Source: Escherichia coli (GTDB taxonomy: Bacteria; Pseudomonadota; Gammaproteobacteria; Enterobacterales; Enterobacteriaceae). From it: DNA of 64,000 nt. The notes below the pieces were generated by a model. That model was not told where the DNA came from and did not search any database. It worked only from the letters and a program-made list of their open reading frames with translations. Made by a program: the position numbers and the translations under genes. Of the stretch, positions 55,632 through 57,713 are shown piece by piece; within the stretch, counting starts at the first letter, position 1, and each line of letters opens with the position of its first letter. Location of the stretch: assembly GCF_051903065.1 (NCBI RefSeq), contig NZ_CP178438.1, one strand, 5' to 3'.

Positions 55632-57713
55632 ATGATAATCAGCCCTCCAATATTGCATGCGCATATAGACACTGAAAAAGACTCTGACTGGGTAAACAGA
55701 ATGATGTCTGTTGATCCAGAAAGAAATTTCCCAATGAATAGCGGTCGTTCTTGGCATGGTGGAGTTCATTTGAACGGCAATCTGTCAGAGACTGTTAGGT
55801 GTATTGCCGATGGGAAGGTTATTTCAATACGCCAGCCAGAACCAGCGGAAAATACAGTTCCTCCGTTAAATTATAACGGAGTTACGGATAAAGGCTATGT
55901 TCTGATAAAACATGAAACAGAAATCGGTAGTGGAGAAGAGGGTAAAATCGTCTATTACTCATTATATATGCACCTGAGAAGCATTGACAGTAATGTGCAG
56001 CCGGGAAACACGCTATACCGGAAAGAACCGGTTGGTGCAGCAGGGATGGTGGACGGACAGAACGCCTTTCATTTTCAGATTTTTTGTGATGATGAAAACA
56101 TTCAGAAAATCACAGGAAGAATATCACCGGAAACAGACCTGAATAAAGATGGACGAACTGATGTGGTTTACGGTGATAGTCATTTTTATCTCCCTGCCGG
56201 AACACCGATTTATGGGGACATGCCGGAAGAAAACTCGCTTGCGAACAACAGTCCGGTACAAAGAACCAGCGTGCCATTGTATGTCACAATGAGTTTTGAT
56301 AAAGGCAATTGTACGATGGTGACGCGTCAGCAGCATGAAGTGCTGAGTGATACCTATACTGAAGTAGGTTCTCCCTTGATTAATGCTGATGGTAAGGATT
56401 ATGAATACAATCTCTATTCCTACGCGCTGCAACTCTATCCGAAAAGCCCAAGTGCCGGTTATGAGATGCTGCGTTTTGGTCGGGTTGTTAATACAGAATA
56501 TGAAGAATTAGTCCCGGCGGATGCGCCGCTGTGGCGAACAATCAATACGCCACAGGGTAAAGGCGTTGTTAACTTAGGGGCGAGAGATATCAGGGTTTAC
56601 AGCGACGGTGATTTTCCACACTGGACAGGGTGGAAACTGGTGAACGATGATGCGGACACCAACAGCCAGTGCAATTCACCAACAATCCTGTGTACAACCC
56701 GCAATGACCTAAGTCGGATGATTTGTCATTTTCCGCTAGAATGGGACAGCACCACCGTGGAATCACGGTTTGAGTGGCTGAAATCACCCAATGACGTATT
56801 GAGTAAGCCGATGACAGAGCCTGACTTGGATTTGCTGATAGAACACTGTAAGGCGCTTTGTTTGGTAGATAATCCGTTACCTGCCAGGCGTGTATGGCAT
56901 TTTGATCCCAGGCAGTTTATTGCACATTTCAGGAAATGTGGGTGGTTAGGAGAAAATGATATTATAAGTGTGGTAAGACGTTATCAAAATGCTTATCCCA
57001 TGACATCAGAACTTACAAGACCATTAAGTAAAGACACTCTAATTGAGCGGATTACTAGCCAAGGACAAAATAGCAGTGGTGAGGTGATAAGACCTGCAGG
57101 GTTGAAAAATGAACTGTCAAAGTCACTAAGGAAGTACTTAATTACAACCCCATTGCGGATTGCGCATTATTTCGGTCAGATGGCGAGAGAAACAGGCAGA
57201 TTTGCGTCTTTTATAGAGAATGGTGATTCGAGTTATTTTGATATGTATGAGCCAGGAACAGAACAGGGACTTAAGCTTGGAAATAATGTTGTTGGTGATG
57301 GTGCAAGATTTAAAGGCAGAGGTACCATACATCTAACTGGTCGTGAGAATTATAGAAATTATAGAAATTATGGAAAGTATAGAAATCCGTCAGATGATGA
57401 TTTTTTTACTACAGAACCCAATAACCAACTCCCAGTTGAAAATGCCTATTTTTCTTGCGATGCCGGGGGATACTTTTGGGCAAGTAAGCAAAAATACATA
57501 ATGGTAAGCCATCGATTGACACCTAGTGGTAGTTTAGGCGTTAATTATTGGGCGGATAAAGGATGTAGTTTGTCAGATGCCAGAGAAGTTACACGGCGAA
57601 TAAACCCAGCAGCAGATGGCTTCGATTTAGTGCGTTGGCCAGCATTTGAGCATTCTTGGTATGTATTGAATGATGAAATAACACCTCCACTTAATTACAT
57701 AAGGATTGTTTAA
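55632..57713 (+). CDS. Predicted T6SS peptidoglycan-hydrolase effector: LytM/M23-like N-domain plus GH19/lysozyme-like C-domain
   Basis: 693 aa from ATG with RBS AAGGA; N-terminal WHGGVHL...YSLYMHL...AFHFQIF; C-terminal AHYFGQMARETGRF and KGRGTIHLTGRENYRNY (GH19/chitinase class I-like). Confidence 0.7.
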   Translation: MIISPPILHAHIDTEKDSDWVNRMMSVDPERNFPMNSGRSWHGGVHLNGNLSETVRCIADGKVISIRQPEPAENTVPPLNYNGVTDKGYVLIKHETEIGSGEEGKIVYYSLYMHLRSIDSNVQPGNTLYRKEPVGAAGMVDGQNAFHFQIFCDDENIQKITGRISPETDLNKDGRTDVVYGDSHFYLPAGTPIYGDMPEENSLANNSPVQRTSVPLYVTMSFDKGNCTMVTRQQHEVLSDTYTEVGSPLINADGKDYEYNLYSYALQLYPKSPSAGYEMLRFGRVVNTEYEELVPADAPLWRTINTPQGKGVVNLGARDIRVYSDGDFPHWTGWKLVNDDADTNSQCNSPTILCTTRNDLSRMICHFPLEWDSTTVESRFEWLKSPNDVLSKPMTEPDLDLLIEHCKALCLVDNPLPARRVWHFDPRQFIAHFRKCGWLGENDIISVVRRYQNAYPMTSELTRPLSKDTLIERITSQGQNSSGEVIRPAGLKNELSKSLRKYLITTPLRIAHYFGQMARETGRFASFIENGDSSYFDMYEPGTEQGLKLGNNVVGDGARFKGRGTIHLTGRENYRNYRNYGKYRNPSDDDFFTTEPNNQLPVENAYFSCDAGGYFWASKQKYIMVSHRLTPSGSLGVNYWADKGCSLSDAREVTRRINPAADGFDLVRWPAFEHSWYVLNDEITPPLNYIRIV

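What the first reader, a model, noticed from the sequence alone, without database searches (positions are those of the whole stretch)
57348..57383. In-frame 9-bp tandem repeat (x4) inside the GH19 signature of the effector
AATTATAGA AATTATAGA AATTATGGA AAGTATAGA encodes NYR-NYR-NYG-KYR immediately after the GRGTIHLTGRE signature. Such near-identical 9-bp units are prone to slipped-strand gain or loss of whole 3-codon units without breaking the frame, so the catalytic loop length could vary between alleles. It may equally be a recent duplication footprint.
Basis: seen in the sequence. Interest (0 to 1): 0.4.

Follow-up and report, generated by a model that had tools for sequence, protein, structure and literature searches.

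The report
One-unit repeat duplication in T6SS muramidase
A real in-frame 9-bp repeat in the cell-wall-cutting domain of an E. coli type VI secretion toxin differs between strains by exactly one unit (3 or 4 copies), but it looks like a single recent copying slip in one lineage, not a fast-switching repeat.

Summary
Window 57348-57383 reads AATTATAGA AATTATAGA AATTATGGA AAGTATAGA and encodes NYR-NYR-NYG-KYR in frame. It is the top-scoring tandem repeat in the 64-kb window and lies beyond chance (0 of 200 simulations).

The gene is a PAAR-VgrG-linked T6SS effector. It has a WHxxxH (WHIX/TseP-type) N-terminal region and a divergent GH19 muramidase-like C-terminal domain.

The predicted length variation exists. 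Of 19 complete E. coli genomes with the gene, 3 carry 4 units and 16 carry 3. The difference is exactly one AATTATAGA unit. Three units is the ancestral state: a Buttiauxella cassette has it, and all roughly 165 homologues with the motif show N-Y-x-x-Y-x-x-Y-R with no insertion.

The 4-unit alleles are nearly identical to each other and share a private A374T change. No 2- or 5-unit allele was found. This points to one recent slipped-strand duplication, not a hypervariable locus.

The extra NYR falls in the only 20-residue block of the domain that has no indel in 66 aligned homologues. It sits directly after the water-coordinating Thr and at the substrate-binding N-Y pair. AlphaFold2 keeps the fold but loses local confidence. 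The functional effect is untested.

This is an ordinary microindel at an unusually constrained site, of modest interest.

The parts
57348..57383 (+). Four in-frame 9-bp units AATTATAGA/AATTATAGA/AATTATGGA/AAGTATAGA encoding NYR-NYR-NYG-KYR (TRF array extends to 57386)
57348..57365 (+). The two identical units. One of them (which one cannot be told) is the lineage-specific duplication that is absent from 3-unit alleles.
   Evidence: DNA alignment A1
57315..57353 (+). GH19 core block GRGTIHLTGRENY: G-R-G, His at the usual Gln (+1 subsite) position, water-coordinating Thr (57336-57338), and the substrate-binding N-Y (57348-57353), which is the first two codons of unit 1
   Evidence: residue roles from PMC8547705 Table 1
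57189..57218 (+). Catalytic Glu pair: E (GAA 57189-57191, in MARETG) and E (GAG 57216-57218, in FIENG), 9 residues apart as in GH19 endolysins (E49/E58)
   Evidence: invariant columns
57066..57713 (+). C-terminal GH19-fold muramidase-like toxin domain (the 215 aa analysed)
55632..57713 (+). Effector gene (693 aa, RefSeq WP_226156858.1, annotated 'M23 family metallopeptidase')
55752..55769 (+). W-H-G-G-V-H, a WHxxxH motif in the N-terminal delivery (WHIX) / TseP-N-like region
   Evidence: translation; conserved in 120 of 121 homologues; motif definition in PMC12135965
53031..53315 (+). PAAR protein gene
   Evidence: RefSeq annotation of the identical strain, (coordinates transferred)
53334..55481 (+). 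VgrG spike gene
57718..58173 (+). Downstream immunity-like gene with a hydrophobic N-terminus. Here it is truncated to 151 aa (167 aa when intact), and its stop codon is supplied by the IS1 end.
58169..58936 (-). IS1 element (768 bp) that cuts off the 3' end of the immunity-like gene

Best explanation
The array is the product of one recent slipped-strand (or unequal-exchange) tandem duplication of a single 9-bp unit. It lies in the GH19-type peptidoglycan-hydrolase domain of a VgrG-linked type VI secretion effector.

Shown: the ancestral gene encodes N-Y-R-N-Y-G-K-Y-R. This is the family-wide N-Y-x-x-Y-x-x-Y-R segment that follows the water-coordinating Thr, and its first N-Y is the conserved GH19 substrate-binding pair.

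Inferred: in this AT-rich gene the segment is spelled AATTATAGA AATTATGGA AAGTATAGA. That places the hexamer AATTAT twice, 9 bp apart, which is enough microhomology for a replication slip.

Shown: one E. coli lineage gained an extra AATTATAGA (NYR). That allele then spread to dozens of isolates and persisted through later rearrangements of the locus.

Inferred: the 3-residue insertion sits in the most length-invariant block of the domain, next to the active-site cleft. It therefore probably perturbs substrate binding or is at best neutral. It is not a fast-switching length-variation device.
For: The indel between alleles is exactly one AATTATAGA unit. Among 5426 complete E. coli genomes, 3 have 664 bp and 16 have 655 bp over the same query; none has 646 or 673 bp. 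Five of the 16 were aligned directly, and the rest are inferred from the length of the match. Both metagenome contigs have a 9-base gap in the pattern, meaning 3 units.

Direction of change: the Buttiauxella orphan cassette (79% aa identity) has AATTATAAA AATTATGGA AAGTATAGA, which is 3 units. None of 114 C-domain homologues with the motif, and no other among the 54 motif-bearing proteins retrieved through the N-domain search, has the extra unit.

Single origin: the 4-unit proteins P0122 and P0135 differ only by L600F, and both carry T374. All five full-length 3-unit proteins compared carry A374. The window differs from the nearest 3-unit genes by 3 SNPs plus the 9-bp gap over 2537 bp, and from the other 4-unit genome by 1 SNP.

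Persistence: the exact 693-aa protein is on at least 23 contigs (73 index blocks) in three locus configurations.

Constraint: the 20 columns from GRG to NYxxYxxxx are gap-free in 66 homologues, and the window's NYR is the only indel there. Residue roles are T130 water coordination and N134 subsite -2 binding (PMC8547705).

Models: pLDDT for residues 91-100 falls from 98 in the 3-unit allele to 82 in the 4-unit allele. The helix at 93-103 is replaced by coil at 92-98 followed by a helix at 99-106. The overall GH19 fold is retained.
Against: The functional consequence is untested. The AlphaFold2 difference is largely dictated by where the alignment places the gap, so it is not independent evidence. 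The allele is intact, in frame and widespread, so it is not strongly deleterious and could be fully active. Only 40 of 382 cluster members were read, and metagenome coverage was thin (2 contigs), so rare 2- or 5-unit alleles could have been missed. Slippage is inferred from the sequence pattern; unequal recombination would give the same product.
Confidence: 0.85

Rival explanations
1. This is a hypervariable in-frame contingency repeat. Units are gained and lost recurrently, so the length of the cleft-lining segment switches between states within populations.
For: Two length states exist in the species. The 4-unit allele now has a perfectly periodic 24-bp tract, which should slip more readily than the ancestor.
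Against: Only two states were seen, and the 4-unit state is confined to one near-identical allele group marked by A374T. The 3-unit state is unchanged between E. coli and Buttiauxella. The tract has only about 2.7 perfect copies of a 9-bp unit. No 2- or 5-unit alleles were found in 5426 genomes or in the metagenome scan.
Confidence: 0.06
2. The extra NYR is adaptive. It remodels the cleft or surface so that the toxin escapes the cognate immunity protein of rival strains or changes its substrate preference.
For: The insertion is next to the active-site cleft, where immunity proteins of peptidoglycan hydrolases commonly bind (general knowledge). The allele has spread to many isolates.
Against: The immunity-like gene next to the 4-unit effector is identical to that of 3-unit strains (WP_001009642.1 in both ECNB21-M121 and A30). 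So there is no co-evolving change, and an escaping toxin would harm sister cells. One sublineage has even truncated that gene. The spread could equally be clonal hitch-hiking.
Confidence: 0.08
3. The insertion is a loss-of-function or attenuating lesion in an auxiliary T6SS module that is decaying. It is tolerated because the toxin no longer matters.
For: It lies in the only indel-free 20-residue block of the domain, at the substrate-binding N-Y. Local model confidence drops. In the window's sublineage IS1 has removed the last 17 aa of the immunity-like protein, which would be easier to tolerate if the toxin were weak. 134 other E. coli genomes retain only a remnant of this effector.
Against: The ORF is otherwise intact, with only one further amino-acid change. 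The catalytic Glu, Glu and Thr are present. The first N-Y keeps its normal spacing from the Thr. Other 4-unit strains keep an intact immunity gene.
Confidence: 0.25
4. The extra unit is a sequencing or assembly artefact.
For: Short tandem repeats can be miscounted.
Against: The same allele is found in three complete genomes from two countries, in many draft assemblies, and in an independent Logan read-set assembly.
Confidence: 0.01
5. The array matters as DNA, not as coding sequence. Each AATTATAGA reads TATAAT on the minus strand, so the duplication adds an antisense -10 element.
For: One antisense promoter-like match (TTTCCA-16-TATAAT, 10 of 12) lies inside the array.
Against: Promoter-like matches in the region (3) are below the shuffle expectation of 4.5 +/- 1.9. 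No antisense ORF or RNA feature was found. A consensus match alone is not evidence of function.
Confidence: 0.02

Closest known systems
TseP of Aeromonas dhakensis (amidase-lysozyme chimeric T6SS effector; C-domain structure 8XCL; PMC11893102)
   Same: Both are VgrG-linked effectors of about 700-850 aa. The C-terminal domain is homologous to 8XCL (profile E = 3e-27; Foldseek E = 8e-4 and 3e-4) and has a Glu-Glu catalytic pair. The N-terminal region has two His residues four apart (TseP H19/H23; here WHGGVH). A small immunity-like gene lies downstream.
   Different: Sequence identity in the C-domain is low (16-17%). The N-domains were not compared directly. No activity data exist for the E. coli protein. 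TseP has no reported NY-unit duplication.
WHIX-domain T6SS effectors, subclass I, with GH19/chitinase-like C-terminus (Fridman et al., PLoS Biol 2025, PMC12135965)
   Same: The WHxxxH motif lies near the N-terminus. The roughly 470-aa N-terminal region is conserved across Enterobacterales and fused to differing C-termini. PAAR and VgrG lie upstream. The cargo targets peptidoglycan and is of the most common class (chitinase-like, 2,242 proteins).
   Different: Membership was not confirmed against the authors' model or dataset: the E. coli accessions were not found in the supplement text held here.
GH19 endolysins (e.g. PWe2 9MS7, SPN1S 4OK7, PaGH19Lys 9EOI)
   Same: The fold matches (TM 0.67/0.77 to 9MS7). 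The catalytic E...E pair, GRG, water-coordinating Thr, N-Y and Pro core residues are present.
   Different: His replaces the usual Gln at the +1 subsite. A clade-specific insertion of about 17 residues is modelled as a beta-hairpin (about 141-150). Pfam PF00182 fails to detect the protein. It is delivered by T6SS rather than by phage lysis.
In-frame tandem-repeat length polymorphisms generated by slipped-strand mispairing in bacterial genes
   Same: Whole-unit gain without frameshift, between short direct repeats.
   Different: Very few copies, two allelic states only, and a single origin. The repeat lies in a conserved catalytic-domain helix, not in a surface-exposed linker or stalk.

Membership tests
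Glycoside hydrolase family 19 (endolysin-type) | Two catalytic glutamates (ELYS E49/E58, 9 residues apart) | tested here: met
   E42 and E51 of the domain (window 57189-57191 and 57216-57218) are invariant in the 67-sequence alignments. Roles are from PMC8547705.
Glycoside hydrolase family 19 (endolysin-type) | Core G-R-G ... water-coordinating Ser/Thr ... N-Y ... P | tested here: met
   G84 R85 G86, T91, N-Y and the Pro are invariant or at least 90% conserved. They map to G123 R124 G125, T130, N134, Y135 and P150.
Glycoside hydrolase family 19 (endolysin-type) | Gln at the +1 subsite (Q128; 92% of endolysins) | tested here: not met
   His (GRGTIHLTG) in this protein and in its eight closest homologues P0001-P0008.
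Glycoside hydrolase family 19 (endolysin-type) | Detected by the curated family model (Pfam PF00182 gathering score) | tested here: not met
   No PF00182 hit even at E <= 10. Most homologues found with the domain do carry PF00182, and a profile of them hits GH19 chitinases at 1e-15 to 1e-18.
Glycoside hydrolase family 19 (endolysin-type) | GH19 fold | tested here: met
   AF2 model with pLDDT 91.7. The top Foldseek hits in the PDB are all GH19 endolysins or chitinases.
Glycoside hydrolase family 19 (endolysin-type) | Muramidase or chitinase activity | not testable with these tools
   Needs enzymology.
WHIX T6SS effectors | WHxxxH motif in the first WHIX region | tested here: met
   WHGGVH at ORF residues 43-48. 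WHGG[IVAL]H is present in 120 of 121 homologues.
WHIX T6SS effectors | Homology to the bipartite WHIX domain of the reference proteins / listing in the authors' dataset | tested here: inconclusive
   The accessions were not found in the held supplement text, which may be cut. No reference sequence was available for a direct comparison.
WHIX T6SS effectors | T6SS spike genes adjacent; polymorphic peptidoglycan-targeting C-terminus; downstream gene with a signal peptide | tested here: met
   PAAR and VgrG lie upstream. The Buttiauxella homologue has the same N-terminus with a different C-terminus. The downstream protein starts MNFKKTIIISVGLIFISFSFVAKC; its signal-peptide character was judged by eye only.
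Peptidase family M23 (the RefSeq name of the protein) | Reaches the Pfam PF01551 gathering score; canonical HxxxD and HxH zinc motifs | tested here: not met
   23.5 bits against a cut-off of 28.7. The first motif reads H-G-G-V-H, with His where Asp is expected (read from the sequence). No PDB sequence match for the N-terminal 423 aa.
Simple-sequence contingency (phase- or length-variable) locus | Many length alleles recurring on unrelated backgrounds; a long perfect tract | tested here: not met
   Two states and a single origin. The tract has 2.7 perfect copies.

The most novel reading that the evidence does not exclude
The number of NYR units acts as a natural 'length dial' on the helix that carries the subsite -2 binding residues of a GH19 toxin. 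On this reading the 4-unit allele has altered peptidoglycan specificity or altered sensitivity to immunity proteins. That would give this E. coli lineage a toxin that rivals holding the standard immunity gene, including the many strains that keep only the orphan immunity gene, cannot neutralise.
Probability: 0.06. Interest if true: 0.55.

Novelty: new member of a known kind. Interest (0 to 1): 0.22.

Why it matters
If the 4-unit enzyme is still active, it is a natural example of a three-residue insertion tolerated in the most length-invariant block of the GH19 core, beside the catalytic water-holding Thr and the N-Y substrate-binding pair. That would be useful to people engineering GH19 endolysins. 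If it is inactive, it marks an early step in the decay of an auxiliary T6SS toxin module, followed in one sublineage by IS1 damage to the immunity gene. Either way it is a small, lineage-specific allele, not a new mechanism. Its practical value is as a lineage marker and a ready-made pair of alleles for a simple structure-function test.

Tried and rejected
- Pfam and NCBIfam scans of the C-terminal domain gave no usable hit. GH19 identity had to be shown through PDB sequence and profile searches and fold search instead.
- A PDB sequence search with the N-terminal 423 aa found nothing.
- A gap-pattern scan of species-representative genomes found no match, so it added nothing on other species.
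- The metagenome scan gave only two contigs, both with 3 units.
- The effector's accessions were not found in the WHIX paper's supplements.
- Two literature searches for an M23+GH19 T6SS effector in E. coli found no description of this protein. An early Pantoea paper noted a similar 'M23 peptidase / chitinase-like' vgrG-island protein.
- Model coordinates are not exposed, so distances between the inserted residues and the catalytic residues could not be measured.
- The internal or antisense promoter idea was rejected because promoter-like matches are not enriched.
- The artefact idea was rejected because many independent assemblies carry the allele.
- I did not determine whether the strain has a functional core T6SS cluster; it lies outside the window.

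Full report

Yes. Window 57348-57383 reads AATTATAGA AATTATAGA AATTATGGA AAGTATAGA. It lies in frame in the ORF 55626-57713 and encodes NYR-NYR-NYG-KYR right after GRGTIHLTGRE. Tandem Repeats Finder reports 57348-57386 with period 9, 4.3 copies, 86% matches and score 64. That is the best of only four arrays scoring 40 or more in the whole 64-kb window. Lag-9 self-identity is 26 of 30, the maximum anywhere in the window. None of 200 first-order Markov simulations of the window reached it; their mean was 17.9 and maximum 22.

**2. What gene is this?**

The window is E. coli chromosome (pdxI to nhoA). It is identical over 2775 bp to strains 23CRST027 and 23CRST031.

The ORF lies in an auxiliary T6SS island between yncG and pptA. 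The order is PAAR (53031-53315), VgrG (53334-55481; Phage_GPD, Gp5 domains), the effector (RefSeq start 55632, 693 aa), and a small downstream gene. The island is AT-rich at 40.5% GC, against 49.4% for the window.

RefSeq calls the effector an 'M23 family metallopeptidase'. The Pfam M23 hit is below the curated cut-off, at 23.5 against 28.7 bits. The N-terminal 423 aa match no solved structure by sequence.

The stretch that gives the weak M23 hit contains W-H-G-G-V-H. WHGG[IVAL]H is present in 120 of 121 homologues of the N-terminal 470 aa, which occur throughout Enterobacterales. WHxxxH is the name-giving motif of the WHIX delivery domain of T6SS effectors. The commonest C-terminal cargo of those effectors is GH19/chitinase-like (PMC12135965). 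TseP, the characterised amidase-lysozyme effector of Aeromonas, is cited there as a WHIX protein, and its N-domain has conserved His19 and His23 (PMC11893102). I could not confirm membership against the authors' own dataset.

**3. Is the C-terminal domain GH19?**

Pfam PF00182 does not detect it, even at E <= 10. Several other lines of evidence do support GH19:

- The domain matches GH19 endolysins in the PDB by sequence (9MS7 at E = 2e-10, plus 9HQW and 4OK7).
- Most of its homologues carry PF00182.
- A profile of those homologues hits 41 PDB sequences. These include TseP-C 8XCL (3e-27) and classical chitinases (1WVU at 9e-18, barley 2BAA at 8e-15).
- AlphaFold2 models of both alleles return only GH19 structures as top Foldseek hits.

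The GH19 Engineering Database paper lists the shared core as catalytic E49/E58, G123-R124-G125, Q128 (+1 subsite), T130 (water coordination), N134 (subsite -2), Y135 and P150 (PMC8547705). Here these correspond to E42/E51, G84-R85-G86, H89, T91, N95, Y96 and the conserved Pro, counting from window 57066.

So the N-Y of the first repeat unit is the conserved N134-Y135 pair. The usual Gln is a His in this clade.

**4. Does unit number vary?**

Yes, by exactly one unit.

- Of 5426 complete E. coli genomes, 19 hold the full C-terminal region. Three span 664 bp like the window and sixteen span 655 bp.
- Alignment of the window, one other 4-unit genome and five 3-unit genomes shows that the only length difference is one AATTATAGA. 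For the other eleven 3-unit genomes this is inferred from the length of the match.
- A gap-tolerant pattern scan of metagenome contigs found two contigs, both with 3 units. The same scan of species-representative genomes found none.
- In the 90% protein cluster (382 members, 40 read), members are 690 or 667 aa with 3 units, or 693 aa with 4 units.
- No 2- or 5-unit allele was seen anywhere.

**5. Which state is ancestral, and how often did it change?**

Three units is ancestral. In Buttiauxella sp. WJP83, an orphan C-terminal cassette with 79% aa identity reads AAT TAT AAA AAT TAT GGA AAG TAT AGA. That is one nucleotide away from the E. coli 3-unit form.

None of 114 C-domain homologues with the motif has a fourth unit. 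Among the 54 motif-bearing full-length proteins retrieved through the N-domain, only the window's own protein has it. Their common pattern is N-Y-x-x-Y-x-x-Y-R, for example NYTNYSKYR, NYGHYSEYR and NYSKYWVYR.

The 4-unit alleles form one tight group:

- The two known 4-unit proteins differ only by L600F and both have T374. All five full-length 3-unit proteins compared have A374.
- At the DNA level the window differs from the other 4-unit genome by 1 SNP. It differs from the nearest 3-unit genes by 3 SNPs plus the 9-bp gap over 2537 bp.

This is the pattern of one recent event. A slip between the two AATTAT hexamers spaced 9 bp apart is the simplest mechanism; that step is inferred.

The allele is not an artefact. 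The exact protein occurs on at least 23 contigs, from NCBI assemblies and an independent read-set assembly, in three locus configurations.

**6. What might it do?**

In an alignment of 67 sequences, the 20 columns from G-R-G through N-Y-x-x-Y-x-x-x-x are fully occupied in all 66 homologues. The window's NYR is the only indel there. Homologues change length only in the loop that follows. The insertion therefore sits in the most length-constrained part of the domain, between or next to residues that hold the nucleophilic water and bind the sugar at subsite -2.

AlphaFold2 gives these results:

| Measure | 3-unit allele | 4-unit allele |
|---|---|---|
| Mean pLDDT | 91.7 | 87.4 |
| pLDDT, residues 91-100 | 98 | 82 |
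| Local secondary structure | helix 93-103 | coil 92-98, then helix 99-106 |
| Match to 9MS7 (TM, rmsd) | 0.67/0.77, 2.4 Å | 0.66/0.78, 3.5 Å |

The global fold is retained in both. Because the alignment dictates where the gap falls, this is only a weak indication. The first N-Y keeps its normal spacing from the Thr, so activity may survive.

I rank the consequences as follows. Neutral-to-attenuating is most likely, with attenuation or loss of function at about 0.25. Adaptive change is about 0.08. A true hypervariable locus is about 0.06.

**7. Context that bears on function**

In the window's sublineage, an IS1 (58169-58936) cuts the downstream immunity-like gene. A 167-aa product becomes 151 aa, and about 850 bp of the ancestral locus are replaced. 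Other 4-unit strains keep the intact gene, which is identical to that of 3-unit strains. So the duplication came first and was not accompanied by a change in the putative immunity protein.

**8. Verdict**

The biology is nevertheless an ordinary single microduplication in a known class of T6SS peptidoglycan-hydrolase effector. It is notable only for where it sits.

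Noticed in passing
window 57718-58173 and 58169-58936: The immunity-like gene downstream of the effector is truncated by an IS1 element. The intact protein is 167 aa and ends ...GTVYHINIESVSNDKCLDKFK; here it is 151 aa and ends ...GTVYR, with the stop codon supplied by the IS1 end. About 850 bp of the ancestral locus, including the 5' part of an ISAs1 transposase gene, are replaced. Other strains with the same 4-unit effector keep the intact gene.
   Followed up: yes
window 57480-57713 plus the downstream gene; E. coli genomes: 134 complete E. coli genomes (for example CFT073, Nissle/EcN, ATCC 25922, ABU 83972) retain only the last ~234 bp of this effector together with the downstream small gene. 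This looks like an orphan-immunity remnant.
   Followed up: partly
L009 (Buttiauxella sp. WJP83) 3355-7546: A full-length 690-aa homologue shares the first ~445 aa but has a different GH19-like C-terminus (NYSKYWGYRGW). It is followed by an immunity-like gene, then an orphan 344-aa C-terminal cassette that matches the E. coli C-domain, then a second immunity-like gene. This suggests cassette swapping at the conserved CHFPLEWD...FDPRQFIAHFRKC junction, as in Rhs and CDI toxin arrays.
   Followed up: partly
window 55752-55769 (WHGGVH) and effector residues 44-157: The RefSeq name 'M23 family metallopeptidase' rests on a sub-threshold Pfam match (23.5 against 28.7 bits). The motif there is WHxxxH, the WHIX/TseP-N hallmark, with His where M23 enzymes have the zinc-binding Asp.
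   Followed up: partly
window 57330-57332 (His in GRGTIHLTG): This effector clade has His where 92% of GH19 endolysins have the +1-subsite Gln. All eight closest homologues (P0001-P0008) share it.
   Followed up: no
window 57349-57376, minus strand: Each AATTATAGA unit reads TATAAT on the opposite strand. One antisense promoter-like match (TTTCCA-16-TATAAT) lies inside the array, but promoter-like sites are not enriched in the region.
   Followed up: partly
window 55017-55062: A 24-bp tandem repeat (1.9 copies, TRF score 57) lies in the 3' part of vgrG. It falls in the region that matches the Gp5 C-terminal repeat and trimerisation domains.
   Followed up: no
window 55626-58173: The effector plus immunity-like gene have 40.5% GC against 49.4% for the whole window, consistent with horizontal acquisition of the module.
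   Followed up: no
window 772-3077 and 28771-29277 (via the RefSeq annotation of the identical strain): ydbD is annotated as frameshifted, and an IS200/IS605 tnpA is annotated with an internal stop, next to an intact insQ/tnpB.
   Followed up: no
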